A DNA stretch of 64,000 nt from a virus: positions 70,561 through 134,560 of the IMG/VR virus record IMGVR_UViG_3300030616_000016; one strand, 5' to 3'. Below the pieces are notes generated by a model. The model saw nothing but the letters and a program-made list of their open reading frames with translations, was not told the DNA's origin and made no database searches. Shown piece after piece: positions 2,027-45,196 of this stretch; the stretch's first letter is position 1; each line of letters starts with the position of its first letter. Made by a program: the position numbers and the translations under genes.

Positions 2027-3107
2027 CTCCGCCTTCCGATTCCGTATTGTCAGATATTAATTTGGTTATATCATTGTTTGCTGCAAATTCATATAGTGCT
2101 ATTATTCCTTGCACGCTTTCTTCGCCTATGTAGTAGTATCCACCACGCTTGGTGATTTTACCATCTACAATCATTTGATCTACTAAAAATCTTTCTTCAC
2201 TAAACCCATGATTAAAGATGAATGGATATTTTACTTCGGCTCCCTCCGGCATAGTACCAGACTGTCTAGTCTTATTGATTTTCATGTAATGCATGAAGCC
2301 AATAATTTTCTCTTTCTTCTTTCCATCTTCTTCTACAATGGCAGCTGGAGCTTCGCTTTTGCTACCTCTACGAGTCATCAGCCTTACGTGTGTAAAATGC
2401 TTAACCGCATTTCCTCCCTTAACGAGAGTTAGGTCACCATATCCACCAATATTGGTGTATATTTGACCAATCATTATGATTGTTGTGTTTGTCTTTGCTG
2501 CAGGACCACAAGCAAGTCTTAGGAACTGGCTCATTTTTCTTTGAAGAACACCGATGGTATCATCGTTTAGGCTACGGTTAGTACCGGTTTTACTTTCGAG
2601 TTCTGCGCGTGGAAGCAGACCGCCAATTGAATCAATAACTACGATGTCTACTAAATTCTCTCTCATAATGTCGAGACATTTATCTAGCATGTTCTCCATC
2701 GTATCTTTCTCAATTATAAAGAGCTCATCTGTATTGACTCCTTGTACTTTTAACCACTCTTTATCCAATGCTTCTTCTGCATCAACCCAGCATGCAATAC
2801 CATGGTTTTTCTGAACTTCTGCTACACATCTTGCACATGCAGTGCCTTTAGCTGTCTGTTCTGGTCCGGCGATTGTAACAATTTTACCTCTAGGAAAACC
2901 TCCGCCTAAATAGTCATCCCAGCCTTTAATGCCGGTTGATATTCTACCGTAATCCTCTAGTCCAAAATGTACAATTTGATTTTCATCATCGATGTCTTTG
3001 TTAATAGAAGTCGCTACTCTTTTTAGACGAGCCATCTTCTCTGCTTTTATATCTTGTGGAGATACAATCTTTTCTTCACTAGTATCTTTGCTTTTTCTCT
3101 TAGCCAT
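1983..3107 (-). CDS. recA: RecA-family recombinase
   Basis: Collinear with RecA: GGGFPRGKIVTIAGPEQTAKGT..., CWVDAEEALD, VVIDSIGGLLPRAELE, GGNAVKHFTHVRL. The 3' end overlaps the RT start by 44 nt. Confidence 0.85.
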   Translation of the reverse strand: MAKRKSKDTSEEKIVSPQDIKAEKMARLKRVATSINKDIDDENQIVHFGLEDYGRISTGIKGWDDYLGGGFPRGKIVTIAGPEQTAKGTACARCVAEVQKNHGIACWVDAEEALDKEWLKVQGVNTDELFIIEKDTMENMLDKCLDIMRENLVDIVVIDSIGGLLPRAELESKTGTNRSLNDDTIGVLQRKMSQFLRLACGPAAKTNTTIIMIGQIYTNIGGYGDLTLVKGGNAVKHFTHVRLMTRRGSKSEAPAAIVEEDGKKKEKIIGFMHYMKINKTRQSGTMPEGAEVKYPFIFNHGFSEERFLVDQMIVDGKITKRGGYYYIGEESVQGIIALYEFAANNDITKLISDNTESEGGDDGTESDKEETETS

Positions 3108-21865: not shown

Positions 21866-23164
21866 GTGACATTACCCCACGCCTAAAGGCGGGGGCTTCC
21901 TAATTCATCGAAAATTGCGTTCCATACTGGCTACGTCTTACATCTTCTCCAAAGGCTTTAGGTTCCCCTTGCCCAGGGGTACAAAATGCAAAATTCAAAA
22001 TATTACTAGATGCAAGGGCATCTCTATCGTGTTTGGCACCACAAGTGCAAGTCCAATATCTGTCACTTAGCTTAAGATTATTATTTATAGCGCCGCACTG
22101 GTTACACATCTTGCTGGATGGTTCAAATCTTCCTATAGTCAAAACATGCTTTCCATACCAACCTGCCTTATACTCAAGAAAGGTACGAAAAGTATACCAT
22201 CCAACATCAGAGATAGCCTTGGCCAAACAATGATTCTTCACCATTCCAGAAACGTTTAAATCCTCAAGACACACTGCTTGGTTCTCGTCAATGAGCCTTT
22301 TGGACAATTTATGCAAAAAATCTTTACGTTGATTAGAAATCTTCTCATGTATCAACGCTACCTTCCTACGAGCCTTGTTTCTATTTGAAGAACCTTTCTT
22401 CTTCTTTGATAATTGTTTTTGCTTTCTTGCCAATCTTCTTTCAAGTTTCTTTAGGTATCTTGGATTATCTATTTTCTCGCCTGTTGATAGTGTTGCAAAA
22501 TGTTTTAATCCAACGTCAACACCTACACTATTATCTCGTTCAGGATTACATTTGATAGGTAATTCTTCTCCATTGTCAACCAAAATAGAAGCAAAGTATT
22601 TCCCAGAAGGAGCCATGAATATAGTTACAGTTTTAATATTGCCTTCAAATTGTCTATGGAATTTGCATTTGATGCCATCACGGAATTTCATTACATATAG
22701 CCTATTATTATCAAAATCCACATTACTTCCTTGTGGAAATTGACAAGATTGCTTTTTGAATTTCTTCTTAAATTGAGGATATCTTGCCTGTTTCTTAAAA
22801 AACCGCCGGAAAGCATTGTCAAGGTTTCTAAAGGCCATTTGCAAAGATTGACTATTAACTTCCTTCAGCCAACCATGCTCAGATTTCATATGTTTCAATT
22901 GCTTTATCAAATCAAAACAGGAAGGAGATTTCCCCGTTTTTTGATAAGACTCTGTTTTCTTTTGGAGTCCCAAATTGTATATGAACCGTACACAACCAAA
23001 ATGCTTCACAAGAAGCTCCTGTTGTTTTTTGTTGGGGTATATTTTGTATTTATATGCTCGTATCATTATATTTATAGTATAGCACAGGTTTCTGTAAATG
23101 TCAAGAGAAAAACGCATTCTTATATCCCCATGGCTAAAGCCAGGGGTCTTACGAATGCACCTTG
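21866..23164 (-). mobile_element. IS200/IS605-family element carrying tnpB only (IS1341-like), 1.3 kb
   Basis: The ends are defined by comparison with copies at 33637-33883 and 62734-62781. The left end (LE) starts CAAGGTGCATTCGTAAGACCCCTGGCTTTAGCCATGGGG immediately after TTAT. The right end (RE) finishes CCCCCGCCTTTAGGCGTGGGGTAATGTCAC. Both ends have subterminal imperfect hairpins. No tnpA is present. Confidence 0.8.
21900..23066 (-). CDS. tnpB: TnpB (OrfB) RNA-guided-nuclease-family protein
   Basis: MIRAYKYKIYPNKKQQELL, GVDVGLKHFATLSTGEKIDNP (RuvC-I Asp), VCLEDLNV (RuvC-II Glu), CNQCG...CTCG (zinc finger), HDRDALASSNI (RuvC-III Asp). Confidence 0.9.
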   Translation of the reverse strand: MIRAYKYKIYPNKKQQELLVKHFGCVRFIYNLGLQKKTESYQKTGKSPSCFDLIKQLKHMKSEHGWLKEVNSQSLQMAFRNLDNAFRRFFKKQARYPQFKKKFKKQSCQFPQGSNVDFDNNRLYVMKFRDGIKCKFHRQFEGNIKTVTIFMAPSGKYFASILVDNGEELPIKCNPERDNSVGVDVGLKHFATLSTGEKIDNPRYLKKLERRLARKQKQLSKKKKGSSNRNKARRKVALIHEKISNQRKDFLHKLSKRLIDENQAVCLEDLNVSGMVKNHCLAKAISDVGWYTFRTFLEYKAGWYGKHVLTIGRFEPSSKMCNQCGAINNNLKLSDRYWTCTCGAKHDRDALASSNILNFAFCTPGQGEPKAFGEDVRRSQYGTQFSMN

Positions 23165-26300: not shown

Positions 26301-27305
26301 TTATCTCATTAAATATAGATTGCGTAGTTCATCTCTATCATAAAACACATTACGGATTTCTTGTCTAATATTATAGTCTTGAAATATTCTATCATAAAAA
26401 CTAGTAGTATCTCCACCAAGAAATTCTATTGCATCATTTATTGGTTGAGTTGTATTATGGTCTGGAGTAATTCCAATTCCTTCTTTCTCGACTCCATATA
26501 TATCATATATAATTCCTGCTGTGTAATTGAATCCATCGCCTCTATAAAACTTATATGCTTGTACGGCTCTAAAAGCACCAAATGTTTTAGAGCCAAATAT
26601 TGTAGCTTCTGAATAGTATTTCATTGCTGAAACAAATATTTCTGCGAATTGAAATGTACAAGCACTCGTAAGTATACACATATTATTTTTATGAAGCCAT
26701 GTATTTTCTGTTTGCACAGACATATCTGCAAAATCACTAAACGCAAATGCTGTATTATTAATTGCTGCAACTAATTCATTAGAATAAGTTTTGTGAGTAA
26801 ATCCAGCAAGCAGTTTTATGTATTCGCCTAATCCGCCATTATTACAATATCTAAGATCGAGAATTAAAGAATTGCATTCGAATTCATACATGTAATGGTT
26901 GACATTAAGCATAACAGTTTCTGCCATTCCAGCAGACATTTTATCTACAGATATATATAATATATCTGGTTCAATTTTATATATTTTTAATGTTCCTGAT
27001 GCTTCATTATCTGATATGGCTGCTTCCATTTCTTCGCTGTTTATATACCTTGTATATAAATCTGTTTCAGAACGGAGTCTATTTATATATGATTCTAAAG
27101 TATCTGAAGTTAAAGGTGGTTGAACGTTTCCATAAATATAGCCTTGTGATAATACCGAATATGCTTCTTGTAGATATTCTTCATCTACGTTTGTAATTTG
27201 ATTTTCTGTATTTGGATTGCTACTATTTCCTCCTCCTCCACAGCCATTACAAAATATAATTATGATACATAATATGAACAAATTAATTTTGATATTTTTT
27301 ATCAA
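26301..27305 (-). CDS. Lipoprotein, S41 (C-terminal processing peptidase)-like domain
   Basis: Signal and lipobox LFILCIIIIFCNGC|GGGG. LILDLRYCNNGGLGEY resembles the S41 DLR-x-N-x-GG motif. GSKTFGAF aligns with the G-x-x-T-x-G-K region but lacks the Lys. TTG start with an AAGAGG RBS. Confidence 0.45.
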   Translation of the reverse strand: MIKNIKINLFILCIIIIFCNGCGGGGNSSNPNTENQITNVDEEYLQEAYSVLSQGYIYGNVQPPLTSDTLESYINRLRSETDLYTRYINSEEMEAAISDNEASGTLKIYKIEPDILYISVDKMSAGMAETVMLNVNHYMYEFECNSLILDLRYCNNGGLGEYIKLLAGFTHKTYSNELVAAINNTAFAFSDFADMSVQTENTWLHKNNMCILTSACTFQFAEIFVSAMKYYSEATIFGSKTFGAFRAVQAYKFYRGDGFNYTAGIIYDIYGVEKEGIGITPDHNTTQPINDAIEFLGGDTTSFYDRIFQDYNIRQEIRNVFYDRDELRNLYLMR

Positions 27306-27428
27306 GACTACCTCTTTCTGTTTAATAATGGTTGTAATGAATAGGAAAGTCTCTGGTAAGGCAAAAGGATGAAGAGCACGAGGGCTCTTTGGGGGAAGTC
27401 GAAAATTCTCACCAGAGACGGGATATAT

Positions 27429-28220
27429 TTAGAAATCAGTTGATTTTGCGGTTCTCATACCGCGAGCCATCATTTCTTTCACAAAGTCTTCTCCAAGACT
27501 TTCGAAGGTCGCTACATTTGAAGTTGTATCTTCAATTAATACAAACTTCTTAATATTCTCATCGCCGAAGTTATCAGCAATGTCTCTTACTGTATTTGCA
27601 ACACAGTGTGACAGAGCTTCTCCAGTTATGAGAATATCGTCTGCTTCCAGTAGGCTATCAAGAAGATTGCCATTAAGTCTTGTAGTAGGGTCAGACGGGT
27701 CTTCTACATCGGCTTTTACTGCTGAGTAGTGTTCTGTAAAAGGATTAGACCCTTTAGTAACATAGTCAATCATAGCAAACTGATTTTCCCACTCAGTTAT
27801 TGCTTCGAACACATTAGCATCGATTGAATGTCCTTGCGAACCAATAAGACAATGTGGCCGCCAGATGCAGAGAACATATCTGCCATTGTCTTCAAGTGTT
27901 TTTGTATAATCTGAAGCTTTCTGTTGAAGAGCTGGGTTATAGGAATGCCAGACACCATTTTTTACATCATCATGGGATATTACTGTAAATGGGTTTGGAT
28001 GTTTACCATCTTTATCAACCCAGAATATAGGATGTGCAATATGAATGGTTCTGTGAGAATCCATTGTAATATGGATATCATCTAATCCGTCTTTCATTCT
28101 GTTGACCATTTCTGCAAGACGTTTCATATCCTCATCTGCTCTAGGAACAACTAGGGCTCCTTTTGGATTACAGAAGTCATATTGAGGATCAATAGCAAGA
28201 AGATGAGTTTTCTTGTTCAT
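27429..28220 (-). CDS. pncA: Nicotinamidase / isochorismatase-family cysteine hydrolase
   Basis: LLAIDPQYDFCNPKGALVV (catalytic Asp region), MDSHRTIHIAHP (metal-binding D-x-H...H), ITGEALSHCVANTV (catalytic Cys). Confidence 0.7.
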   Translation of the reverse strand: MNKKTHLLAIDPQYDFCNPKGALVVPRADEDMKRLAEMVNRMKDGLDDIHITMDSHRTIHIAHPIFWVDKDGKHPNPFTVISHDDVKNGVWHSYNPALQQKASDYTKTLEDNGRYVLCIWRPHCLIGSQGHSIDANVFEAITEWENQFAMIDYVTKGSNPFTEHYSAVKADVEDPSDPTTRLNGNLLDSLLEADDILITGEALSHCVANTVRDIADNFGDENIKKFVLIEDTTSNVATFESLGEDFVKEMMARGMRTAKSTDF

Positions 28221-28239: not shown

Positions 28240-29895
28240 TTATTTTTTAATACTGATAGAGAACATTTCTTTATCCTCTGTAAAGTATACACTGGTACCA
28301 TCAGTGTATAGTGGCATTGATGAGTCTATCGGCGGATTAGTAATAATGCGTTTTTGATTATCTTTAGAGATCTCAATCTTTTGATCGCTAAATACATCAA
28401 TGCAAACTCCATTATTAAGAACAATGAAATTGATATTATCAACATCGCGCTCTTCTTTGTCTAGCAGAATACCTTTATTTTCTTTGCTGCATAGTTTGAA
28501 TCGGAATCTATAATATTTACCAGATTCTTCTGCTATGCATACTAGAATTCCTCTGCTATGTTTTGCATTGATTATTCTAAGTCCATGGAGTTCCTCAATA
28601 GGACCTAGAAAACTACCAGAATCTTCTAATGGCGCATATGCCCAACATTTGTCTAGGAAGTTGCTAATTACTACTCCACTAAACATTTGATTCATAGTAC
28701 CAAGATTTTGGGATGGATTCGAGCATGCCGCGCTCTTATTCCCCATATTTTTTGCATATACCTCATATACTGAGGCGCCGTTTCTGCAAAATATACTACC
28801 ATTGTATATCATGGCTTTGTCTGCGGCAAATTTACCTGGTATATCCGTTTCTATTTCTACACAGCCATTATCAATTATGCCTAACACAGGGTCAGGAGAT
28901 AGATTGCATAGAAATGCCTTTTTATTGGATATATCCTTAAATATGGATTTACCACAGTATATTGCCTTATCCGTAAATGTATAGAAAATACCATTTAGGA
29001 ATTGTATTGATTTAATCGGCTCATTGTACTTATACATTGATTTAATGTCAAAATTTGCTGTGCTTCTTATAGTCTTTTGAACCATAGCTATATTAATTGT
29101 AGCGTCAGGTTTAGGTGGAGCGCTGCGTTTATTCTCAATGAATATTGACTTAAACCACTCCATATGAGCTTTAGGAATAACTGAGAAGTCTTGACATACG
29201 GATGGAATGGTAACCTTACTATCAAATACGGATATACCATCATCCATTCGCTTAGTAAATTCTCTTGGTTTATAGTCTGGGTGTTTACCCTTATAAGGAT
29301 GGATACCAACATAAAGCTGAAATGCTATTACTGCAAACGAGAACCAATCGCTTAGTTCTGTGAACTTTTTGGCTAAGCGGTCTCTTATTGAATCCATAAT
29401 AGCATTAGCTGGAAATGACTTTGTCTGATAACTGTCAACGTCAATAAAGTAAGGTACTTTATGACCTTTGTCTATCAGAAAGTTCATTTCATTCATATCT
29501 ACTATCAGGCATTGTTTAGAATGAATGTGCTCGACCGTGTCTTGTATATTGCGCACAATTTCTAATACTTGATTAGGAGATATATTATTATCTTTTCTGT
29601 ACTGCTTAGTAAAGAGCTTGCATAGAGCACTTGTCTCTTTAATATACTTCATTGTATATCCGATGACATTGCTTGTCTTTTTATCGCAAACAATATCTTC
29701 CGGTTTGATAACATTGCCGGCTGTTATATAGCCAAGCTCTTCAATCTTTCTTAATGGTATCATATGCTTGATATCATTATAAATCTTGAAGGCAATATTG
29801 TCTTTTTTATATACAGAACCTTGACCACCAGATGCAATAAAATCATTGTCTTTCAGGTCAAATGAAGCCTTTGTTCTATTTACAATGACTCTCAT
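28240..29895 (-). CDS. Ser/Thr protein kinase with large C-terminal domain
   Basis: IASGGQGSVYKKDNIAFKIY (Gly-rich loop and Lys). HSKQCLIVDMNEMNFLI (catalytic-loop D..N). FIDVDSY (DFG-equivalent). Confidence 0.7.
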   Translation of the reverse strand: MRVIVNRTKASFDLKDNDFIASGGQGSVYKKDNIAFKIYNDIKHMIPLRKIEELGYITAGNVIKPEDIVCDKKTSNVIGYTMKYIKETSALCKLFTKQYRKDNNISPNQVLEIVRNIQDTVEHIHSKQCLIVDMNEMNFLIDKGHKVPYFIDVDSYQTKSFPANAIMDSIRDRLAKKFTELSDWFSFAVIAFQLYVGIHPYKGKHPDYKPREFTKRMDDGISVFDSKVTIPSVCQDFSVIPKAHMEWFKSIFIENKRSAPPKPDATINIAMVQKTIRSTANFDIKSMYKYNEPIKSIQFLNGIFYTFTDKAIYCGKSIFKDISNKKAFLCNLSPDPVLGIIDNGCVEIETDIPGKFAADKAMIYNGSIFCRNGASVYEVYAKNMGNKSAACSNPSQNLGTMNQMFSGVVISNFLDKCWAYAPLEDSGSFLGPIEELHGLRIINAKHSRGILVCIAEESGKYYRFRFKLCSKENKGILLDKEERDVDNINFIVLNNGVCIDVFSDQKIEISKDNQKRIITNPPIDSSMPLYTDGTSVYFTEDKEMFSISIKK

Positions 29896-30731
29896 GGCTT
29901 ATCCTTAAGCAGTGTAGCACATGCTATATCATCAAAGTGCTTATTGTTTATTTTGGAATCCATGATGCGTATTTTCTTCATTCTTCTTTTTACAAACTCT
30001 CCTTTGAAGGTTTTATATACAGTCATTCGTATAGCGTTATCAAGCACACTTGTATTTTCAAAAGAGCTTATACCATCAGTGAACAGGCTTATGCTCATTC
30101 CTTCTGCCATTGGCGCACTAGACATTATGTATGGCTCGAACATGGGGATTGTAGAGCTCTTAAAGTCTTCGTCTGGGTTATATGACAATACTGTTTTTTC
30201 TGGATTGCCCAATATATCCATAGTATTCATATAGTCTTTAATCTTTTCATCTTCCATGCGATATGCAAGATAGTATGGCATGTTAGATGTATATGATATT
30301 TCTTCAATACGAATCCATGGATTTGGGTCATTCGCTCTATCAAAACCATCATTAAAGACAACTACTCCATCTCCCCATACTGCTATGCCAAATCCCTCAT
30401 TATTGGCTATTACTACCATAAGCGTGGCATAGAATGTCTGGATGTCAAGACAAAGAGCTATTGCTACTTTTGATAGCGCTCCCAACACTTTATTTTCAAA
30501 TGAACAAAGAGCAGTTGATAATGTCTTGTGTCCAAACATAACTATTGAGCTTCTTAATGCTTGTTCTGCAGCAATTCCAAGTATTTTTGCACCAAGGTCT
30601 GTGTTTTGTGCAGAAGAACAGCCGTCACAGACGATACCATAGGAATAACCATAGATATCGCCTGTGATAGCATAATCTTCACACATATCATGACTGGCAC
30701 CAATTTCTACAAAACTATCTTTCTGTATCAT
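29892..30731 (-). CDS. PP2C-family protein phosphatase
   Basis: IGASHDMCEDYA, VCDGCSSAQNTDLGAKI, LFTDGISSF. This is the PP2C_2-type pattern. Overlaps the kinase start by 4 nt. Confidence 0.65.
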   Translation of the reverse strand: MIQKDSFVEIGASHDMCEDYAITGDIYGYSYGIVCDGCSSAQNTDLGAKILGIAAEQALRSSIVMFGHKTLSTALCSFENKVLGALSKVAIALCLDIQTFYATLMVVIANNEGFGIAVWGDGVVVFNDGFDRANDPNPWIRIEEISYTSNMPYYLAYRMEDEKIKDYMNTMDILGNPEKTVLSYNPDEDFKSSTIPMFEPYIMSSAPMAEGMSISLFTDGISSFENTSVLDNAIRMTVYKTFKGEFVKRRMKKIRIMDSKINNKHFDDIACATLLKDKP

Positions 30732-30747
30732 TGGTACTCCCAGTCAT

Positions 30748-31497
30748 TTAGAAGTTAAGAATTGAAGATGCCGAGCCGGATCCAAGAGACTGTGATTGTG
30801 AGGATATGCTTTGACTCACAAATTCAGCCAGCTTTGCAAGCTTGGATGGAGTAGCTTCTCCGACAGATACGTATTTATCAAGGTTTGCATTATCCTTGAA
30901 TGTAGTCAAGAAATTCTTGACTGCAGGATCTTTATCAATCCCGATAAGAACCGTAATAATTGATTCGAGGCTTTCTTCTCTTGTGATATCATCTACTAAC
31001 GTAGCAACTTGTACTGGCGCATTATTTGATTGATTATCAGCGCCATCTGTAATGATAAATACAATTGCATTTGTTAGGAGATCTACTTTATCATACATCT
31101 GCTTGCTATACTGATGTGTTGCTTCGATGCCTTCATATGTTGCATCAAATAATGCAGTTGTACCGCCTGTACGGATGATATTAGAGTATTCATCATCACT
31201 AATATCACTTAGGAGGCGGAAACCATGCATTTCGTTCAGATTAGCATTGAATGTAGTGAAGCGAACCATTAAGTTTTCTGCACGTGGAGACTTTTTGCAT
31301 GATTCGATTACAGTTTTCAGCATATCCTCAATATCATCTTTGTATGGAGACACTGAAGAAGATACGTCGATAATAATTGAAACGAGTGTATATTCAGAAG
31401 CACCTAGTTCATCAAGCTTTACAGCACTGAATCTGAAGTTTGATGCAGTCTGCATACTGGTTATGTTTGCAAGATCTTTATCCATTAATCTTGGCAT
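30748..31497 (-). CDS. von Willebrand factor A (vWA) domain protein, TerY-like
   Basis: MIDAS residues: IIIDVSSSVS (DxSxS), GGTTALFDA (Thr), FIITDGADN (Asp). Confidence 0.75.
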   Translation of the reverse strand: MPRLMDKDLANITSMQTASNFRFSAVKLDELGASEYTLVSIIIDVSSSVSPYKDDIEDMLKTVIESCKKSPRAENLMVRFTTFNANLNEMHGFRLLSDISDDEYSNIIRTGGTTALFDATYEGIEATHQYSKQMYDKVDLLTNAIVFIITDGADNQSNNAPVQVATLVDDITREESLESIITVLIGIDKDPAVKNFLTTFKDNANLDKYVSVGEATPSKLAKLAEFVSQSISSQSQSLGSGSASSILNF

Positions 31498-31499
31498 GG

Positions 31500-32486
31500 T
31501 TATTTCCTTTCTTTGTTAAGCCTGTTTCCTTCTCCTAAATGCATAAGGGGAAGCGGTTTAGGGCTATCACCATTTAGGAAGTATACCTTGGTAGCCGGGT
31601 CTTTTGTAATTGTACCTAGTGCTTTAAGTGCTTCAAGCTGGATATATGCAGGATTATTTGCAATAGCATCGTTAACTTTCTGAATTTCATATGCTTTTGC
31701 GTCTGCAAGGATCTTCTGTTTTTCTGCTGAAAGCATTGCGGCGTCTTTATCTGCCTGAGCAGTTTTAACTTTCTTCTGCTGTTCAGTCTCAAACCTGCGC
31801 AACTCTGCTTTCTCACGTTCAGCTTCCTGCTCGCGTTTCTTCTTACTCTCAACACCTTGCTGGATTGTGTTGGGAAGTTGAATATTTCTAATGAGAACAG
31901 CTTCAACATCAAGGCCCTTTGGTGCAACGTATTCTTTAATTGAAGTAAGAAGATTTGCCTGCATCTTTTGCTGAATTTCTTCCCTAAAGAATGACTCTGC
32001 AGTTTTCACACTTTTACCTTGTTCTCGCAATAAGCTTCGGAACTTGGGTAACATGTGTACTTCCATAAGGTCTTTAGGATTACCGGTTTCTTGCAGAATG
32101 TCTGGAGCCATAGACTTGATAATTCGATACTGACAGCTTACATCGAATGTCGTAACAAGCTGGTCCATACTTGGGATGGGAACCTGGCTCATTGTAATAC
32201 TTTTCTGACGACAATCGAATTCTTCCCAATCATACAAAGGATTGGTAAGGTGAATGCCTGCTTCATAGGGCTGATCAACGACTTTACCAAAGAATGTAGC
32301 TACTCCAATATGTCCTGGAGGTATTGAGATAACACATGAAGCGATGAGAGTAATAGCGCCGACGGCTCCTACCAGTAGACCGCCAAGAATATAAGGACGC
32401 CTTTTTTCTTCTGATTTAGCCATAAGACCATATACAAACACCAACAAACCGATTAATGCAATTATAATACCAAGAGCAAGTATCAT
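31500..32486 (-). CDS. SPFH/Band-7 (prohibitin/HflK/C-like) membrane protein
   Basis: Two N-terminal TM helices, then IPPGHIGVATFFGKVVDQPYEAGIHLTNPLYDW and a C-terminal Lys/Glu/Ala coiled coil. Confidence 0.75.
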   Translation of the reverse strand: MILALGIIIALIGLLVFVYGLMAKSEEKRRPYILGGLLVGAVGAITLIASCVISIPPGHIGVATFFGKVVDQPYEAGIHLTNPLYDWEEFDCRQKSITMSQVPIPSMDQLVTTFDVSCQYRIIKSMAPDILQETGNPKDLMEVHMLPKFRSLLREQGKSVKTAESFFREEIQQKMQANLLTSIKEYVAPKGLDVEAVLIRNIQLPNTIQQGVESKKKREQEAEREKAELRRFETEQQKKVKTAQADKDAAMLSAEKQKILADAKAYEIQKVNDAIANNPAYIQLEALKALGTITKDPATKVYFLNGDSPKPLPLMHLGEGNRLNKERK

Positions 32487-33887: not shown

Positions 33888-35558
33888 TTAGTTTATAAGG
33901 CAAAACAGATACTTCTGAATTCTGTCACTGCCTGTTGCATATTCGTCTATCAGGCGATATAAGAGCTTGTCCCAGCCTTTAGATAGCATCAACTGCATTA
34001 CAGTGATGTATATCCTTGTTCCAGACCTCTTACCACTATTTGCATATATTCCATCATCAGATAGCTTACGACTGCATGCATGAGTATTTGTCTGGTGGCT
34101 GAACTTATCTAATACTATCCAGAACACTTTCCCAGACCATGCCTCAACTGTCTGTCCGTTATAAGTATGCTTTTGTGGCTTGCATTCTTTTATAAGAGCA
34201 GATGGTATATTCCCATCTTCTCCTTCTAGAAAGTGAGGAACGGGCGCCGGCCCTGATTCCTCTGCAATATTATTAAGCATAGCTTCTACTATCTGACCTG
34301 GATTCCTACGCTTTAGAGTTGCAAGAGCGTTGGTTACCACTTCTGCTGGTTTGCCATCTATCTTAGGCATTTGCTCGTCTGGTATAATATTTACTATACC
34401 TTTATTACCGTGACGATTTGTAATTTTGTCGCCACTTCTGAGAATATGAAATCTCTCGTATTCGACAATAAGTTTTGTACAAACTGTGTTTGCTACTTTT
34501 GTTCTTATCTCACTGATATTAGACAGTTTAGCTTCACGCTTGACATGACATTTAAGCGTGATTGTTTCTTCTCCATCAGAATAAGAACCAATTATCTGAT
34601 TTGGTCTTACAATGTCTCCGGCTTTGGCTTCCATCTTTAGGCTTTGTTTGCACCATCCTGGTACTACGAATGTCTGTTTCTCAGGAATGACACATGTCAT
34701 TTTTCTAGCTGCTGACTTACTCATAACAATCTGTTCTTTGTATACACCAGGCATGATTGCATGAACTGTAAGTAAGTGCTTGCCATTAAGATTGTTATCA
34801 TAATCTTCTGGAAACACCATAGGTTTATCTGGACTAACTAGCTTGCTGGAAGCCTTGAAATTAGATGCAGTGGTTCTGCGGCGATTATATTCTGGTACAA
34901 TAAGATTCTTATTGAGTATATCGCAATAAACCCGACCTCTTTTGGTGAAGCATCCAATATCGTTTATTTTGCATTCTTCAGCCATGTACATTGTGCGACC
35001 ACAATTCCCCGATGACTGACTTATACTTGTCCAATCAAGAATGCCTTCTGTATTGAATGGCATAAATTCATCCGTTCGTTCTTGAAATAGCTCTAATGAT
35101 ATTTTGGGTCCATAGTGAGTAGCTATTCCCTTTACGACATGAGATAATCTTGAAGTTTTAAGTAAATTATCGAGCTTCATTTGAGCTGTGGTAGAATCTT
35201 CTTGATGTCCGAACATAAAGAAGTCTGACAGTTGTGTAGCATATGCTTGCTTAATGAATTTAAGAAGAAGCTCGTATGGTGTTGATAAATATGTGTGATT
35301 AATATTCATACATCTGTTATTAAAGATTGGCATTGGATTAAGTGTATAGCATAATTGCCGGCTTATTCCATTTACAGAAAACATACCCTTGTTATCAATC
35401 TTAGGTATATTTAGTTTTACGACTGTTTGCATGCTCTGGGATGCCTCTTTAACAAGCATTTTTGTATGAAATAGGTCATCATATTCTTCTATATGACAGT
35501 CAACAGGCAAACAATTACATATAGGAAACAATCTTGCAAGATGAGACTTATTCATCAT
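33888..35558 (-). CDS. Multisubunit RNA polymerase beta-like subunit, C-terminal fragment
   Basis: RSGDKITNRHGNKGIVNIIPDEQMPKIDGKPAEVVTNALATLKRRNPGQIVEAML is collinear with the RpoB GDK..RHGNKG...DMP...NP...R.N.GQ region. Confidence 0.75.
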   Translation of the reverse strand: MMNKSHLARLFPICNCLPVDCHIEEYDDLFHTKMLVKEASQSMQTVVKLNIPKIDNKGMFSVNGISRQLCYTLNPMPIFNNRCMNINHTYLSTPYELLLKFIKQAYATQLSDFFMFGHQEDSTTAQMKLDNLLKTSRLSHVVKGIATHYGPKISLELFQERTDEFMPFNTEGILDWTSISQSSGNCGRTMYMAEECKINDIGCFTKRGRVYCDILNKNLIVPEYNRRRTTASNFKASSKLVSPDKPMVFPEDYDNNLNGKHLLTVHAIMPGVYKEQIVMSKSAARKMTCVIPEKQTFVVPGWCKQSLKMEAKAGDIVRPNQIIGSYSDGEETITLKCHVKREAKLSNISEIRTKVANTVCTKLIVEYERFHILRSGDKITNRHGNKGIVNIIPDEQMPKIDGKPAEVVTNALATLKRRNPGQIVEAMLNNIAEESGPAPVPHFLEGEDGNIPSALIKECKPQKHTYNGQTVEAWSGKVFWIVLDKFSHQTNTHACSRKLSDDGIYANSGKRSGTRIYITVMQLMLSKGWDKLLYRLIDEYATGSDRIQKYLFCLIN

Positions 35559-37074
35559 TATCTTTCTCCAATACTAGGACTCTGTCCCTGAGATACTTGA
35601 TGAGTTGATTTTTGTCTTCGTTATTCAGTACATTCATGATGTGTTCTATGGCTAGAGTATAGAAAGCGTCGCCTTCTACCATGCTTAGTCTAGGATCAAA
35701 CACTGCATAGAATATAGAATTCTCTGCGTCTACTATATCATTAATTAACTTAGGGTTATCCCTATTATATAGTAGATTAAGATATGGCTCGACTTGTTCT
35801 ACGTCTATCTCACAATCTTTAAGTATTTCGCGAGCTACGTTTATGTCGCTAATACCATCATTTTTAAGTACTTTAATGAGACTGACATATGATTCATCAA
35901 GTTTATGTTTAGAATCAAATAGGCGCTGGTTTGCTTGTTCTGATAGCTTATCTGCAGCTTTGGCTATTTCTATATTGCCATCTGCCAATACTCTTGCACG
36001 ACATGCTGCGGCTCCAGCCTTGCCAATCTCTGATTTCTGGAGAATGAGGCCTTTTGCAACCTTGATGTCGTCTTCTCGTATTTCAGATAAGGACTTGCCT
36101 TTAAAGAATCCTGTAAGGTCCTTAACGTCAATGTCTTCTGCATTACACATGGCTTTTATTGTCTCAGAATTTTCTGTGTCAATAAGGTCATGTGGTCCAA
36201 TTACTCTGAATTTTGAGATTCTTTTTACACCATCATCTATTATGTTTTCCAAGTCAGGGGTTTCTTCTTGATTATCGATAAGAAACTCTTTGTCCCACTT
36301 TGTTGTGGACCAGTCTTCTTCTATATCAATATCAGGATACCCAAGTACTGTTTCAATTAGATCTCCATCGGAATCAGCACCCATGCCATCAGTAATAATG
36401 GGATGAATAATGATCCTGTTGGATTTAGTAGGAAGTATGTATAACTTGCGCATAGAATCGTTGTGTAGCAAGGGATTTCTGAATGCAATTACATAAGGCT
36501 TCCCTTCTGTATTGGACTCTTCTTTCCTTTCTTTCCACTTTTCTATGAACTTGACATATATATGCTGAGGTAATTTTATGTGGTCATAAGGCATTCTGAA
36601 GTCGGTAGCAATATGGCCTTTACCAGAATATAATGCTCTGAAACCAAGGATATATGTATTAAACAATCCTGATTTACCGACCAGCTCTTTAGCCATTATT
36701 TTCCATACTCTTTCAGCACTATCTTCCACTACTTCTGTGTCAATATTGCCAATACCAAGTTGGCTAATTGACACAAGTAGTTTTTCTGTAGCGATTTGTA
36801 TATCATTTAATACTATGTGCCCGGCTACTGGTCCTGGCATATTCATATTAGGGATTATTACTTTTTGAACCTTCTTGCCGAAGTAATTATTTATTTCAAT
36901 CGGCAAGTGTACATACCCGCCATACTGAAGTACATCTTCATCAAGTATGGTGTTTTTGAGGTTCTTATTAAGTAAATCCGGTTTTGAAATGATCGCTTTT
37001 GTTGTATTCGAAAATAGATTTCTTCGTATCTGTATATTACCACACTGTTTCGATAAACTCGTCAGATTCATCAT
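35548..37074 (-). CDS. Multisubunit RNA polymerase beta-prime-like subunit, N-terminal fragment
   Basis: LVGKSGLFNTYILGFRALYSGKG, AFRNPLLHNDSM (NRxPxLH) and ITDGMGADSDGDLIE (variant of the catalytic NADFDGD). Confidence 0.7.
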   Translation of the reverse strand: MMNLTSLSKQCGNIQIRRNLFSNTTKAIISKPDLLNKNLKNTILDEDVLQYGGYVHLPIEINNYFGKKVQKVIIPNMNMPGPVAGHIVLNDIQIATEKLLVSISQLGIGNIDTEVVEDSAERVWKIMAKELVGKSGLFNTYILGFRALYSGKGHIATDFRMPYDHIKLPQHIYVKFIEKWKERKEESNTEGKPYVIAFRNPLLHNDSMRKLYILPTKSNRIIIHPIITDGMGADSDGDLIETVLGYPDIDIEEDWSTTKWDKEFLIDNQEETPDLENIIDDGVKRISKFRVIGPHDLIDTENSETIKAMCNAEDIDVKDLTGFFKGKSLSEIREDDIKVAKGLILQKSEIGKAGAAACRARVLADGNIEIAKAADKLSEQANQRLFDSKHKLDESYVSLIKVLKNDGISDINVAREILKDCEIDVEQVEPYLNLLYNRDNPKLINDIVDAENSIFYAVFDPRLSMVEGDAFYTLAIEHIMNVLNNEDKNQLIKYLRDRVLVLEKDNDE

Positions 37075-43009: not shown

Positions 43010-44020
43010 TTACCAAGGCCAGTTAGGGACCTCGATCTTATGAACATGTTTCAAGTGATCGAATGCATAAGGCTGGAAAGGCGCTTCGACGCCATAATGA
43101 GCACGATAAGCAACTTCCCACCAGTGAGACAGGAATATCTTAGTAGCCCATCTCTTACTTCTCATATGAATCTGACTATTGGGGAGCTTGCCTTCGCGAT
43201 ATATTGCCCTCTGTTTATGACCAGGCACTCTTCGAAGAACTTCTCGTGCAATATGCGCATATTCCTTGGCTTCATTCTTACGCGACTCGATAATCTTCCT
43301 TTCAACAACAAGATGTCCATAGAGATCTTTTGGATTGTTGCATGTCATATTGAAAGACTCACCGATTTTCCAGCAGAGTGTTTTCAGTTCTGAATTCCAG
43401 GGACGCATTGACAGACCTCTGTAAAGCGTCTTGCCTGTATGAACTCCGCCTCCTTTCTGTAATGAGAGACGAAGTGCGGTAGCTGCTTTGATTCCTCCGG
43501 CTTCTTGTATCGCATTTGCTACCTTAATAGCATCTTCTTCAGATACTCTTCTTGTACTATCAGGATTAATACCGGCTTCGTCAACCATGATTTCTCTTGT
43601 AACTTTCTTGCCAAGCCAGCGCTTTCCGTCTACAAGACCAGCATAGCTATAGATATGTCCTGGAGTCTTAGCTTTGTCCATATCTATATGGGCAATAAGA
43701 CCGGCGCTGATAACAGGGCCAATACCTACAACTGATTGAGCCCATGTACCAATTTTTGTTGATAATGAGAAATGATTGAGCGCGAGCTTCACCTGATTCT
43801 CAAGACGCTCCGCATTCTTAAGAAACCAATCAAGCACTTCCATTGGAGGGTCGTCTACGCCCTGCTCTGCTGCTCTAAGCTGACCAGCAAGCCTGATTCT
43901 CTGGTTCTGCATGGTATAATAACTATCTACCAGATAGCGGGCTTCCTGACGCGTAATCTTTCTTGACGCGTTTCTTATGTCTTTACCTACTCTTTCAATA
44001 ATTTCTTCAATAGCCATCAC
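43010..44020 (-). CDS. Protein with IS110/IS116/IS902-type transposase C-terminal (HhH) domain-like region
   Basis: VVGIGPVISAGLIAHIDMDKAKTPGHIYSYAGL resembles the GIGP..A..L.AEI....F......YAGL motif. I could not see the N-terminal DEDD catalytic domain. Confidence 0.4.
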   Translation of the reverse strand: MMAIEEIIERVGKDIRNASRKITRQEARYLVDSYYTMQNQRIRLAGQLRAAEQGVDDPPMEVLDWFLKNAERLENQVKLALNHFSLSTKIGTWAQSVVGIGPVISAGLIAHIDMDKAKTPGHIYSYAGLVDGKRWLGKKVTREIMVDEAGINPDSTRRVSEEDAIKVANAIQEAGGIKAATALRLSLQKGGGVHTGKTLYRGLSMRPWNSELKTLCWKIGESFNMTCNNPKDLYGHLVVERKIIESRKNEAKEYAHIAREVLRRVPGHKQRAIYREGKLPNSQIHMRSKRWATKIFLSHWWEVAYRAHYGVEAPFQPYAFDHLKHVHKIEVPNWPW

Positions 44021-44038: not shown

Positions 44039-45196
44039 TTAAAGCATGTTTACCATGCTATTATATAGACCCGCATACTCTTGCGGGCCTGAACGTTTGC
44101 CTGGGTTATCGGACAATTTAACAGTAGGAACAAAGCCCTCTCTATTATATGAACAGGCAGTCATTTTAATAACGATATTAAGAGGATCTACTCCAACATC
44201 ATTAGTGAAATTAGTGCCTATACCATATACTGTTTTGATTCTTTTGTTTACATATTCTTCTATCTCAAGAACCTTGTCAACATCAAGAGAGTCTGAGAAT
44301 ACAATGGTTTTTGTACTTGGATCTATACCAAGGCTCTCATAGTGTTTTATTATTTTGTCAGCAAATTCCATAGGATCGCCTGAATCTTGCCTTACACCAT
44401 CCCAAAGACTCGCTCTGACATAATCAAATGATCTTAGAAACCAATCAGTTGTATAAGTATCAGTAAGCGCTATGCCTAGTTTGCCCTTATATGTCTCTGC
44501 CCATTTATCAAGGGCAATAGAAGTAGCCATTTGAGGACCAAATATGGCGCCGTGGAACATAAACCACTCATGAGCTTGTGTGCCAATTGGTCGCATGTTA
44601 TGAGTGGTTGCTAATAATACATTACTTGTACCAAGACAGTATTGTGAAATTTGTTTTCTTGTAGACATGTCATCCAGAAGTTCATTCTGTACACCAAATG
44701 AAAATCTGCGTCTGGTTCCGAATTCTATGAAGTTGACTTTGTGCTTGATGAGTTTGTCAACCTTGTCTACATTTGTTTTATATCTTTCTTTCCTGAACTT
44801 AGGCGCTATACCAAGCTTAAGATAGTATAGCTCGCTAATAGCCGCTAATAGCGGTACTTCCCATAGTATAGCAGAATACCATGGCCCGCATATTTCTACT
44901 TTGAGATCTTCGTCTGTTTGTGTAACACATACTTCATTAGGATTGAATCGATGATGTCGTAGGTATTCTAGATATGTTGAATCAAAGACTCCAATCTTTC
45001 GCATAGCTGTAATACTATCGTCTATAAAGTATGTATGTTGCATATGATCAATAAACTCATTTAATTCCTTTTGCATACTTTCAGGGAACTCAGTCTTTGT
45101 TCTTGACTTGAATTCATATTTTACTAATGCAGATGGATAGTGTTTAAGTACTGCATTTTGCATGGCGAACTTATAGAAATCATTGTCTGCTGCCAT
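44039..45196 (-). CDS. pncB: Nicotinate phosphoribosyltransferase
   Basis: NDFYKFAMQNAVLKHYP (TD-x-YK-x-TM region). LGTSNVLLATTHNMRPIGTQAHEWF (GTSN...GT.AH). 385 aa. Confidence 0.75.
   Translation of the reverse strand: MAADNDFYKFAMQNAVLKHYPSALVKYEFKSRTKTEFPESMQKELNEFIDHMQHTYFIDDSITAMRKIGVFDSTYLEYLRHHRFNPNEVCVTQTDEDLKVEICGPWYSAILWEVPLLAAISELYYLKLGIAPKFRKERYKTNVDKVDKLIKHKVNFIEFGTRRRFSFGVQNELLDDMSTRKQISQYCLGTSNVLLATTHNMRPIGTQAHEWFMFHGAIFGPQMATSIALDKWAETYKGKLGIALTDTYTTDWFLRSFDYVRASLWDGVRQDSGDPMEFADKIIKHYESLGIDPSTKTIVFSDSLDVDKVLEIEEYVNKRIKTVYGIGTNFTNDVGVDPLNIVIKMTACSYNREGFVPTVKLSDNPGKRSGPQEYAGLYNSMVNML

What the first reader, a model, noticed from the sequence alone, without database searches (positions are those of the whole stretch)
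28240..31497. vWA / PP2C phosphatase / Ser-Thr kinase triad (TerY-P-type) inside a phage
Three adjacent, partly overlapping genes encode a vWA protein with a full MIDAS motif, a PP2C-type phosphatase and a Hanks-type kinase with a ~270-aa extra C-terminal domain. This three-gene association has been noted in comparative genomics of tellurite-resistance-linked loci as a phospho-signalling switch. Its function is poorly understood. Its presence in phage cargo suggests manipulation of host signalling, or a self-versus-competitor sensing circuit.
Basis: partly seen in the sequence, partly recalled or inferred. Interest (0 to 1): 0.6.

Follow-up and report, generated by a model that had tools for sequence, protein, structure and literature searches.

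The report
Phospho-switch triad wired to NAD salvage
The three genes are real, but they belong to a conserved four-gene cassette with a nicotinamidase that sits among NAD+-recycling genes in huge phages and some bacteria, so the triad most likely controls NAD+ salvage rather than general host signalling.

Summary
Window 28240-31497 (minus strand) encodes three proteins. One is a TerY/YegL-like vWA protein with a complete, conserved MIDAS. One is a PP2C-type phosphatase with all its metal-binding aspartates. One is a YegI-like Ser/Thr kinase with intact catalytic residues and a C-terminal 7-bladed beta-propeller (AF2 pLDDT 94-95).

This is the next gene, 27429-28220, a PncA-type nicotinamidase with its catalytic triad and metal ligands intact. 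In 160 related loci (80 IMG/VR viral contigs up to 548 kb and 80 bacterial genome contigs), the commonest order is PncA>vWA>PP2C>kinase (101 loci). In 100 of the 160 loci, further NAD+/ADP-ribose genes lie within 8 kb: PncB, NadD, NadE, NrtR-like Nudix, NMNAT-Nudix, NADAR, ARH and PARP. NadE often sits inside the triad. The window itself carries a bona fide PncB at 44039-45196.

My best reading is a TerY-P-like phospho-switch coupled to nicotinamide-to-NAD+ salvage, which the phage probably uses to sustain or rebuild NAD+. The gene association is shown. The regulatory mechanism is inferred.

This is a new variant of a known kind. Known TerY-P kinases carry a zinc ribbon or an OB fold, not a propeller. 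I found no paper that links the triad to PncA.

The parts
30748..31497 (-). TerY/YegL-like vWA protein (249 aa). MIDAS is D44-x-S46-x-S48, T114, D151. It has a conserved N-terminal extension and a conserved Ser-rich C-terminal tail (SISSQSQSLGSG), which is a candidate phospho-acceptor.
   Evidence: ORF. Homologues carry PF00092 and are named YegL. The alignment with E. coli YegL gives the invariant residues. The family profile hits the ITIH4 vWA domain.
29892..30731 (-). PP2C-type (PP2C_2) protein phosphatase, 279 aa, with all metal-binding aspartates.
   Evidence: PF13672 at E 3.7e-10. D19, D36, D121, D219, D267 and D268 are at least 99% conserved in 133 homologues.
29131..29895 (-). Kinase domain (residues 1-255) of the 551-aa kinase. 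It is a YegI-like, non-RD Hanks-type Ser/Thr kinase. Key residues are G-loop G23/G24, K37, E53, D133-x-N-E-x-N138, D152-V-D-S-Y-Q-T158 and D183-W184.
28249..29052 (-). C-terminal 7-bladed beta-propeller (residues 282-549) of the kinase; a presumed sensor or partner-binding domain. This propeller family occurs only at the C-terminus of such kinases.
27429..28220 (-). PncA-type nicotinamidase (263 aa), the conserved fourth member of the cassette. The catalytic triad is D11/K156/C206 and the metal ligands are D54/H56/H123. It has an insertion of about 45 aa relative to E. coli PncA. In this window it lies after the kinase; in most relatives it lies before the vWA gene.
   Evidence: PDB Pnc1 at E 3.3e-5. 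NCBIfam PRK11609 at E 3e-8, below that model's cut-off. The family profile hits nicotinamidases at E 1.6e-21 to about 1e-11, ahead of isochorismatases at about 1e-4. 31% identity to E. coli PncA, with invariant residues. Co-located with the kinase in 128 of 163 loci.
27372..27389 (-). Terminator-like hairpin 40 nt after the PncA stop codon; a possible operon end. Weak evidence.
   Evidence: Eight such sites were found against 4.3 expected, so this is only suggestive.
44039..45196 (-). PncB-type nicotinate phosphoribosyltransferase (385 aa). It catalyses the step that consumes the nicotinate made by PncA. It lies 12.5 kb upstream on the same strand.
   Evidence: Pfam NAPRTase at E 9e-57 plus NAPRTase_N. 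NCBIfam NF003704 at 438 bits (cut-off 379) and TIGR01514 at 394 bits (cut-off 269.55). Matches the locus-derived NaPRT profile at E 2.7e-136.
31500..32486 (-). SPFH/Band-7 membrane protein that abuts the vWA gene (2-nt gap). It is probably co-transcribed here. It is not a conserved partner of the cassette elsewhere.
   Evidence: PF01145 at E 2.7e-24. A homologue is found next to the cassette only in the window's own locus.

Best explanation
The locus is a four-gene cassette. It holds a PncA-type nicotinamidase and a TerY-P-like phospho-switch. The switch consists of a MIDAS-containing vWA protein, a PP2C phosphatase and a YegI-like Ser/Thr kinase fused to a beta-propeller.

The cassette is a conserved accessory of the deamidating (Preiss-Handler-type) NAD+ salvage route: nicotinamide -> nicotinate (PncA) -> NaMN (PncB, present in this window) -> NaAD (NadD) -> NAD+ (NadE).

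Shown: the four genes are co-inherited in a fixed order in huge phages and in bacteria. All four carry intact catalytic or metal-binding residues. NAD+ salvage and ADP-ribose genes flank the triad, and NadE even interrupts it.

Inferred: the kinase, through its propeller, senses a partner or metabolite linked to NAD+ status. It reversibly phosphorylates a cassette component, and PP2C resets the switch. The most likely target is the conserved Ser-rich tail of the vWA protein; PncA itself is an alternative. The vWA protein uses its MIDAS to bind and gate the nicotinamidase or the salvage enzymes.

In the phage, the likely purpose is to keep or rebuild the NAD+ pool during infection, for example when host NADase defences release nicotinamide.
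For: 1. Co-inheritance. With phmmer at E<=1e-3, 163 loci contain the kinase. Of these, 134 have the vWA, 133 the PP2C and 128 the PncA homologue. The order PncA>vWA>PP2C>kinase, all on one strand, is seen in 101 loci.

2. Spacing. Median intergenic gaps in bacterial loci are 24, 54 and -1 nt. In viral loci the PncA>vWA gap stays tight at 51 nt.

3. Closest relative. It has 54-71% identity and keeps PncA>vWA and PP2C>kinase. The window's order (vWA-PP2C-kinase-PncA) is therefore a rearrangement that still preserved linkage.

4. Neighbours confirmed by Pfam and NCBIfam: NAPRTase/PncB, NAD synthase, NadD, NrtR-type Nudix-wHTH, NMNAT-Nudix, NADAR, ADP-ribosylglycohydrolase; the WGR-PARP cluster rests on the precomputed Pfam listing for one locus.

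5. Frequency. 100 of 160 loci have at least one such gene within 8 kb. Examples are L009 (NaPRT-PncA-vWA-PP2C-KIN-NadE-NadD), L077 (a 536-kb phage contig) and L084 (a 2.28-Mb Spirochaetota contig).

6. NadE often falls between PP2C and the kinase in viral loci (present in 26 of 80; median start 1.1 kb upstream of the kinase start).

7. The window encodes a PncB that scores above the curated cut-offs.

8. The PncA-like protein has its catalytic triad and metal ligands, and its profile prefers nicotinamidases. It is the most conserved cassette member, at about 60% identity across more than 100 clusters.

9. Kinase, PP2C and vWA active-site residues are conserved.

10. YegI is a biochemically active Ser/Thr kinase according to its describing preprint (10.1101/819920).

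11. Jumbo phages that encode complete salvage or Preiss-Handler pathways are documented (PMC11662467). Phage NAD+ reconstitution is an established counter-defence (abstracts listed; NARP3 paper).
Against: No experiment or structure-based interaction test links the triad to PncA or to NAD+ levels. The regulatory logic rests only on gene neighbourhood.

NadD and NadE were not found in this 64-kb window, so the phage may rely on host enzymes or on genes elsewhere on the contig.

Thirteen loci lack PP2C, and some viral loci show only PP2C plus kinase within 8 kb. The cassette is therefore not invariant.

The PncA-like protein has an insertion of about 45 aa and scores below NCBIfam's nicotinamidase cut-off, so its substrate could differ.

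Some bacterial copies lie in variable, defence-like surroundings (AbiEii-like ATPase, RtcB/RlaP). That is also compatible with a conflict-system role.

Some 'genome' loci are short MAG contigs that could be mis-binned phage DNA.
Confidence: 0.55

Rival explanations
1. The cassette is a stand-alone TerY-P-like defence or superinfection-exclusion system carried by the phage. The triad senses a competing phage. The nicotinamidase is the effector or an accessory, for example by starving a competitor's NAMPT-type salvage of nicotinamide.
For: TerY-P-like triads have been reported as stand-alone antiphage systems and as add-ons to CoCoNuT restriction systems (PMC11090510). The kinase gives weak PADLOC hits to the defence kinases mad6 and PD-T4-6. 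One bacterial chromosomal copy lies next to AbiEii-like AAA_21 and RtcB/RlaP genes. ARH, NADAR and PARP neighbours fit conflict systems.
Against: There is no hit to PADLOC TerY models, although those models also barely detect E. coli YegL. No nuclease, pore or other typical effector recurs nearby. The recurrent neighbours are NAD+-building enzymes (PncB, NadD, NadE), not NAD+-destroying ones. The module is widespread and old in huge phages.
Confidence: 0.15
2. The kinase and phosphatase are phage effectors that rewire host Ser/Thr signalling, and the adjacent metabolic genes are unrelated cargo.
For: Phage protein kinases that target host proteins are known (my own background knowledge). The kinase is predicted to be active.
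Against: The same operon, with its own phosphatase, vWA and PncA, sits tightly packed in bacterial chromosomes of 3.8-6.2 Mb, where there is no host to manipulate. The fixed four-gene linkage and the NadE insertions inside the triad argue for an internal, self-contained circuit.
Confidence: 0.1
3. The PncA-like enzyme is not a nicotinamidase. It is a cysteine hydrolase acting on another amide or on a protein side chain. The cassette would then be a protein- or metabolite-modification system only loosely tied to NAD+.
For: It has an insertion of about 45 aa and is larger than canonical PncA (263 aa against about 180-215 aa). Its NCBIfam score of 33.7 bits is far below the 174-bit cut-off. The Pfam Isochorismatase hit is weak.
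Against: The catalytic D/K/C triad and the D/H/H metal site typical of nicotinamidases are conserved. The family profile ranks nicotinamidases 10 or more orders of magnitude ahead of isochorismatases. It frequently neighbours PncB, which consumes nicotinate.
Confidence: 0.1
4. The vWA protein acts as a Mg2+-dependent chaperone or scaffold that assembles the NAD+ salvage enzymes into a complex. The kinase and PP2C only tune assembly, with no role in sensing.
For: vWA domains are described as Mg2+-dependent peptide-binding co-chaperones in NAD+/ADPr-related gene neighbourhoods (PMC9503650). The PncA-vWA junction is the tightest one in phage loci.
Against: This does not explain the conserved, family-specific propeller on the kinase. 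No AAA+/MoxR partner, which is usual for vWA chaperone pairs, recurs in the loci.
Confidence: 0.1

Closest known systems
TerY-P triad (TerY-like vWA + PP2C + Ser/Thr kinase), as in E. coli yegL-pphC-yegI and in CoCoNuT- or Ter-associated loci
   Same: The three domain types and the gene order are the same. The vWA aligns with YegL, including the MIDAS and the Ser-rich C-terminal motif. The kinase domain is YegI-like (E 2e-11), with the same D-x-N-x-x-N and I-D-x-D-S motifs.
   Different: The kinase C-terminus is a 7-bladed beta-propeller. It is not a zinc ribbon or an OB fold (PMC11090510), and not YegI's membrane-spanning C-terminal region (10.1101/819920). A PncA nicotinamidase is a fixed fourth partner. 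The recurrent neighbours are NAD+ salvage genes, not Ter or restriction genes. Identity to the E. coli PP2C and vWA is very low.
Phage NAD+ reconstitution and salvage: NARP1, NARP2, NARP3, and 'NAD-jumbo phages' with salvage or Preiss-Handler genes
   Same: These are phage-borne enzymes that rebuild NAD+ from its breakdown products. Jumbo phages are reported to encode complete Preiss-Handler pathways (PMC11662467). The window has PncA plus PncB.
   Different: The described pathways are purely enzymatic or transport sets. NARP3, for example, is PnuC plus NadR. None of the papers I could read mentions an embedded kinase, phosphatase and vWA module.
NrtR-regulated NAD+ salvage operons in bacteria
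   Same: An NrtR-type Nudix-wHTH gene lies next to the cassette in 31 of 80 genome loci and 29 of 80 viral loci, as in classical NrtR regulons that control pncA and pncB.
   Different: Here a post-translational Ser/Thr switch appears to be layered on top of, or in place of, transcriptional control. The window itself has no NrtR homologue.
Integrin-type pairing of a vWA (I-like) domain with a beta-propeller
   Different: This is only a fold-level resemblance at about 6% identity. No interaction was tested. It is an analogy, not homology.

Membership tests
TerY-P triad | TerY/YegL-like vWA protein with a MIDAS motif | tested here: met
   D44, S48, T114 and D151 are invariant in an alignment that includes E. 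coli YegL; position 46 is S/T in the family rows. Homologues carry PF00092 and are named YegL. The protein's own Pfam hit is absent.
TerY-P triad | Adjacent PP2C-family phosphatase | tested here: met
   PF13672 at 40.1 bits against a gathering score of 24. The metal-binding aspartates are conserved.
TerY-P triad | Adjacent Hanks-type Ser/Thr kinase with catalytic residues | tested here: met
   YegI-like at E 2e-11. K37, E53, D133, N138 and D152 are conserved. The AF2 model shows a kinase fold. The Pfam Pkinase score of 30.1 is just below the gathering score of 31.7.
TerY-P triad | Kinase fused at its C-terminus to a zinc ribbon (Ter/CoCoNuT type) or an OB fold (defence type) | tested here: not met
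   The C-terminal 282-549 is a 7-bladed beta-propeller. The definition comes from PMC11090510.
TerY-P triad | Genomic association with Ter (tellurite-resistance) or restriction/DNA-processing genes | tested here: not met
   The most recurrent neighbour clusters in 160 loci are NAD+/ADP-ribose genes, and none is a Ter or restriction gene. I checked only within +/-8 kb.
TerY-P defence system (PADLOC models) | Match to the PADLOC TerY models | tested here: inconclusive
   The vWA and PP2C gave no hit at E<=10. However, E. coli YegL itself reaches only E 0.032, so the models are too narrow to decide.
Nicotinamidase (PncA/Pnc1) | Asp-Lys-Cys catalytic triad and Asp/His/His metal site on an isochorismatase-like fold | tested here: met
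   D11, K156, C206 and H123 are invariant. D54 and H56 are conserved in at least 90% of sequences. Identity to E. coli PncA is 31%. The family profile's top PDB hits are all nicotinamidases.
Nicotinamidase (PncA/Pnc1) | Score above the curated family cut-off, and demonstrated nicotinamide deamidation | tested here: not met
   NCBIfam PRK11609 gives 33.7 bits against a cut-off of 174. Enzymatic activity cannot be tested with these tools.
Nicotinate phosphoribosyltransferase PncB (window 44039-45196) | Score above the curated equivalog or subfamily cut-offs | tested here: met
   NF003704 at 438 bits (cut-off 379) and TIGR01514 at 394.3 bits (cut-off 269.55).
Phage NAD+ reconstitution pathways (NARP-type counter-defence) | A complete phage-encoded route from NAD+ breakdown products back to NAD+, and rescue from NADase defence | not testable with these tools
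   Only PncA and PncB lie in the window. NadD and NadE are absent from these 64 kb but are present next to the cassette in relatives. Rescue needs an experiment.

The most novel reading that the evidence does not exclude
The kinase-propeller, PP2C and vWA proteins form a previously unrecognised post-translational sensor that detects NAD+ collapse or its products (nicotinamide, ADP-ribose). It switches on a phage-encoded deamidating NAD+ resynthesis pathway that begins with PncA. This would be a regulated, fourth kind of phage NAD+ reconstitution system. It would also be the first assigned physiological output for a TerY-P-type triad, shared between huge phages and Armatimonadota, Acidobacteriota and Myxococcota.
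Probability: 0.3. Interest if true: 0.8.

Novelty: new variant of a known kind. Interest (0 to 1): 0.62.

Why it matters
TerY-P/YegIKL-type triads are widespread, yet no physiological output has been assigned to them. This branch has a fixed enzymatic partner, a nicotinamidase, and a coherent metabolic neighbourhood. That makes its function directly testable.

NAD+ depletion and reconstitution is a central battleground between phages and bacterial immunity. A phospho-regulated Preiss-Handler-type salvage module would add a regulatory layer that is absent from the described NARP pathways. The kinase-propeller family has at least 612 clusters at 50% identity, and the module occurs in many uncultured phage contigs of 200-550 kb. 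It would also suggest that Ser/Thr signalling controls NAD+ homeostasis in several bacterial phyla.

Tried and rejected
- A single-sequence scan of IMG/VR with the kinase found nothing. Only the alignment-based scan worked.
- Pfam does not recognise the window's vWA protein, even at E<=10. Single-sequence PDB search gave only noise. The vWA assignment needed homologues and a profile.
- PADLOC gave no TerY-P assignment. I rejected this as evidence against membership, because E. coli YegL itself barely scores.
- blastn and tblastn against 50,697 deposited phage genomes found only unannotated, uncultured huge phages. No cultured relative or annotation is available to borrow.
- The promoter scan was not informative: 42 sites against 35 expected.
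- I considered SPFH (31500-32486) and the S41 peptidase (26301-27305) as cassette members and rejected both. They are next to the cassette in only 1-2 of 163 loci.
- I looked for NadD, NadE, Nudix, NADAR, ARH and PARP in the window using profiles built from the loci, and found none.
- I could not read Anantharaman et al. 2012 (PMC4104200 is not held). The TerY-P definition is therefore taken second-hand from PMC11090510.
- An apparent PncA-vWA fusion in L140 is an ORF-calling artefact; the two hits are in different frames.
- NARP3 turned out to be PnuC plus NadR, which is unrelated to this cassette.
Full report
**1. Observation**

Every ORF of 200 aa or more in the 64-kb window lies on the minus strand. 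The three ORFs named in the finding exist exactly as described:
- vWA: 30748-31497, 249 aa
- PP2C: 29892-30731, 279 aa
- kinase: 28240-29895, 551 aa

PP2C and the kinase overlap by 4 nt. vWA and PP2C are 16 nt apart.

PP2C. It is recognised directly: PF13672 at E 3.7e-10, 40.1 bits against a gathering score of 24. In 133 homologues, D19, D36-G37, D121, D219-G220 and D267-D268 are at least 99% conserved.

Kinase. Its Pkinase score is 30.1 bits, just under the Pfam threshold of 31.7. Other evidence makes the assignment secure:
- Its N-terminal 225 residues align with E. coli YegI at E 2e-11 and share the D-x-N-x-x-N and I-D-x-D-S motifs.
- In 118 full-length homologues, G23, G24, D133, N135, E136, N138, D152, D183 and W184 are invariant. 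K37 and E53 are at least 90% conserved.
- The AF2 model is very confident (pLDDT 93.9, pTM 0.90). Its N-terminal half matches eukaryotic kinase structures.

vWA. The protein gets no Pfam hit, even at E<=10. The assignment rests on three other results:
- Its homologues at about 50% identity carry PF00092 or PF13519 and are labelled YegL by JGI.
- An alignment that includes E. coli YegL shows the invariant MIDAS residues D44, S48, T114 and D151, with S/T at position 46 in the family rows. It also shows a shared Ser-rich C-terminal motif in which S228, S230 and S235 are invariant.
- A family profile hits the vWA domain of ITIH4 (E 1.2e-3).

**2. The kinase's extra domain**

An exhaustive phmmer search of 1.84 billion cluster representatives with this domain found 612 clusters at E<=1e-3. 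In the 150 listed hits the match sits at the C-terminus, either of a protein of about 560 aa or of a truncated fragment. The kinase-propeller architecture is therefore a distinct, sizeable family.

According to PMC11090510, TerY-P kinases carry a C-terminal zinc ribbon or, in the defence-validated type, an OB fold. [quoted passage not shown] The propeller differs from all of these.

**3. Context and relatives: the key result**

The kinase has more than 1,600 homologues. Alignment-based scans retrieved 80 IMG/VR viral loci, from contigs up to 548 kb, and 80 loci from GTDB species genomes. The genome set includes complete Capsulimonadaceae chromosomes of 3.8-6.2 Mb and contigs assigned to Armatimonadota, Acidobacteriota (Pyrinomonadaceae, Blastocatellia), Myxococcota, Desulfobacterales and Spirochaetota.

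I called ORFs in all loci and searched them with the window's proteins. The kinase is in 163 loci. Of these:
- 134 have the vWA
- 133 have the PP2C
- 128 have a homologue of the next window gene, 27429-28220

The dominant arrangement is that fourth gene first, then vWA, PP2C and kinase, all on one strand. It occurs in 101 loci.

Bacterial loci are tight operons, with median gaps of 24, 54 and -1 nt. In viral loci the fourth-gene-to-vWA junction stays tight (median 51 nt), while the other two junctions are often interrupted.

The window's closest relatives (54-71% identity) keep the canonical order. The window's order (vWA-PP2C-kinase-fourth gene) is therefore a rearrangement that nevertheless preserved linkage.

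SPFH (31500-32486) and the S41 peptidase (26301-27305) are not conserved partners.

**4. The fourth gene is a PncA-type nicotinamidase**

- Single-sequence hits: yeast Pnc1 (PDB 2h0r, E 3.3e-5) and NCBIfam PRK11609 (E 3e-8, below its cut-off).
- It shares 31% identity with E. coli PncA.
- The catalytic triad D11/K156/C206 is invariant. Of the metal ligands, H123 is invariant and D54 and H56 are conserved in at least 90% of sequences.
- It has an insertion of about 45 aa relative to E. coli PncA.
- A family profile ranks nicotinamidases first (E 1.6e-21 to about 1e-11), well ahead of isochorismatases (about 1e-4). One of the 15 profile rows is E. coli PncA itself, which is a mild bias.
- It is the most conserved member of the cassette, at about 60% identity over more than 100 clusters, with 3,168 hits in all.

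**5. The neighbourhood is NAD+ metabolism**

I clustered all ORFs of the 160 loci and annotated cluster representatives with Pfam and NCBIfam. The recurrent neighbours are:
- PncB-type nicotinate phosphoribosyltransferase (54 loci)
- NrtR-type Nudix-wHTH (about 60 loci by profile)
- NAD synthase NadE (29 loci)
- NadD (17 loci)
- NMNAT-Nudix
- NADAR
- ADP-ribosylglycohydrolase
- WGR-PARP (assigned from the precomputed Pfam listing of locus L002, not from my own scans)

In 100 of the 160 loci, at least one of these lies within 8 kb.

Whole pathways occur in line with the triad. L009 reads NaPRT-PncA-vWA-PP2C-KIN-NadE-NadD. L077, from a 536-kb phage contig, and L084, from a 2.28-Mb Spirochaetota contig, are similar. 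NadE is found in 26 of the 80 viral loci, and its median start is 1.1 kb upstream of the kinase start, so it commonly lies between PP2C and the kinase (L004 is a checked example).

The window itself has a PncB at 44039-45196 that exceeds the curated cut-offs: NF003704 at 438 bits against 379, and TIGR01514 at 394 bits against 269.55. NadD and NadE were not found in these 64 kb.

**6. Is it a phage?**

The window comes from a 231.6-kb contig (ENA ERZ27252234). The evidence for a huge phage is:
- one-strand gene organisation
- split RNAP beta-like genes
- a UvsX-like recombinase, phage-type helicases and TnpB
- mostly orphan ORFs
- no tRNA genes

Among deposited phage genomes, the only matches are uncultured huge phages: LR756511 (595 kb) and LR745208 (485 kb). 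A huge phage is the best reading.

In a distance analysis of kinase sequences, most sequences have a nearest neighbour of their own kind: 70 of the viral and 70 of the genome sequences. One large bacterial cluster of about 46 sequences stands apart from many diverse viral clusters. Some short 'genome' contigs may be mis-binned phage DNA.

One complete bacterial chromosome locus (L099) is not prophage-like. Its neighbours include an AbiEii-like AAA_21 ATPase, PcfJ, RlaP, RtcB and Ppk.

**7. Mechanism**

Shown:
- four co-inherited genes
- intact catalytic or metal-binding residues in all four
- an NAD+ salvage neighbourhood that even invades the triad

Inferred:
- PncA is the enzymatic output, or the first step, of a deamidating salvage route: nicotinamide -> nicotinate -> NaMN -> NaAD -> NAD+.
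- The triad is its post-translational switch.
- The kinase is a non-RD type with a nearly invariant S-Y-Q-T158 in the activation segment.
- Its family-specific propeller probably binds a partner or a metabolite.
- The conserved Ser-rich tail of the vWA protein is the most obvious phospho-acceptor.
- PP2C resets the switch.
- The vWA MIDAS provides metal-dependent binding to a target.

In a phage, the plausible benefit is to sustain or rebuild NAD+ when host NADase defences release nicotinamide. This is consistent with documented phage NAD+ reconstitution and with 'NAD-jumbo phages' (PMC11662467).

Rival readings are given with their evidence in the rival section of this report. They are a stand-alone defence or superinfection-exclusion system, host-signalling manipulation, a non-nicotinamide substrate for the hydrolase, and a scaffold or chaperone role for the vWA protein.

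**8. Comparison with what is known, and novelty**

The triad resembles TerY-P/YegLKI in domain set, gene order and sequence motifs. It fails the described C-terminal fusion criterion (ZnR or OB) and the Ter or restriction association.

PADLOC is uninformative, because its TerY models barely detect E. coli YegL.

I read four papers on NAD+ systems in phages: PMC11662467, PMC7824862, PMC9503650 and PMC13464706. None mentions a kinase, phosphatase and vWA module associated with NAD+ salvage. The two Aravind-lab surveys do not mention PncA at all. A full-text search for nicotinamidase + vWA + kinase + phage returned nothing.

I could not access Anantharaman et al. 2012, so an earlier mention there cannot be excluded.

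I rate this a new variant of a known kind. The gene association is solid. The mechanism is a testable hypothesis.

Noticed in passing
window 44039-45196 (-) and 43010-44020 (-): A bona fide PncB nicotinate phosphoribosyltransferase scores above the NCBIfam cut-offs. Directly downstream of it on the coding (minus) strand is an ORF with a weak IS110-family transposase hit (PF02371, E 7.7e-5). This may be a sign that the NAD+ genes move by transposition.
   Followed up: partly
window 21900-23117 (-): A TnpB/IS605 OrfB-type gene (phrog_506 at E 1.5e-133; Pfam OrfB_IS605 and Cas12f1-like_TNB in the contig listing). It lies about 4 kb downstream of the cassette on the coding strand. Another TnpB-like ORF flanks the cassette in the 508-kb relative, L002.
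   Followed up: no
window 33888-35558 and 35548-37074 (-): Two adjacent ORFs look like a split multisubunit RNA polymerase beta-type subunit. The first has RNA_pol_Rpb2_6 at E 2.4e-13; the second has no family hit. This is typical of jumbo phages with their own RNAP.
   Followed up: no
window 31500-32486 (-): An SPFH/Band-7 membrane protein (PF01145; phrog_200) is separated from the vWA start by only 2 nt. It is probably co-transcribed here, but it is absent next to the cassette in all other loci.
   Followed up: partly
window 878-2026 and 1983-3107 (-): An ORF resembling a reverse transcriptase or polymerase (phrog_2825 and phrog_1423) overlaps the end of a UvsX-like recombinase gene (phrog_97).
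   Followed up: no
loci L086, L090, L094, L145, L148, L153, L158, L159 and others (genome contigs): Thirteen loci, at least eight of them from Acidobacteriota, Blastocatellia and Myxococcota, have PncA>vWA>kinase with no PP2C. In those eight there is no room for one between vWA and the kinase; the other five have 1-2 kb gaps where a divergent PP2C was not excluded. The phosphatase is therefore dispensable in cis.
   Followed up: partly
19 genome loci, e.g. L122 9704-11926: A protein of about 740 aa, with an N-terminal SAM-methyltransferase domain and a large uncharacterised C-terminal part, follows the kinase directly in 19 bacterial loci and only 1 viral locus. It may be a bacterial-specific fifth component.
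   Followed up: no
L002 (NCBI GCA_043956695.1, 508.7-kb contig): A relative's cassette is followed by a methyltransferase, a NadD-like gene, a WGR-PARP gene and LAGLIDADG and HNH homing endonucleases. This is an unusually rich NAD+/ADP-ribose island in a very large contig of unclear nature.
   Followed up: no
L099 (Capsulimonadaceae chromosome OZ251980.1), flanks of the cassette: The bacterial chromosomal copy lies between an AbiEii-like AAA_21 ATPase and PcfJ, RlaP, RtcB and Ppk genes. This looks like an RNA-repair or defence-like variable region, not a prophage.
   Followed up: partly
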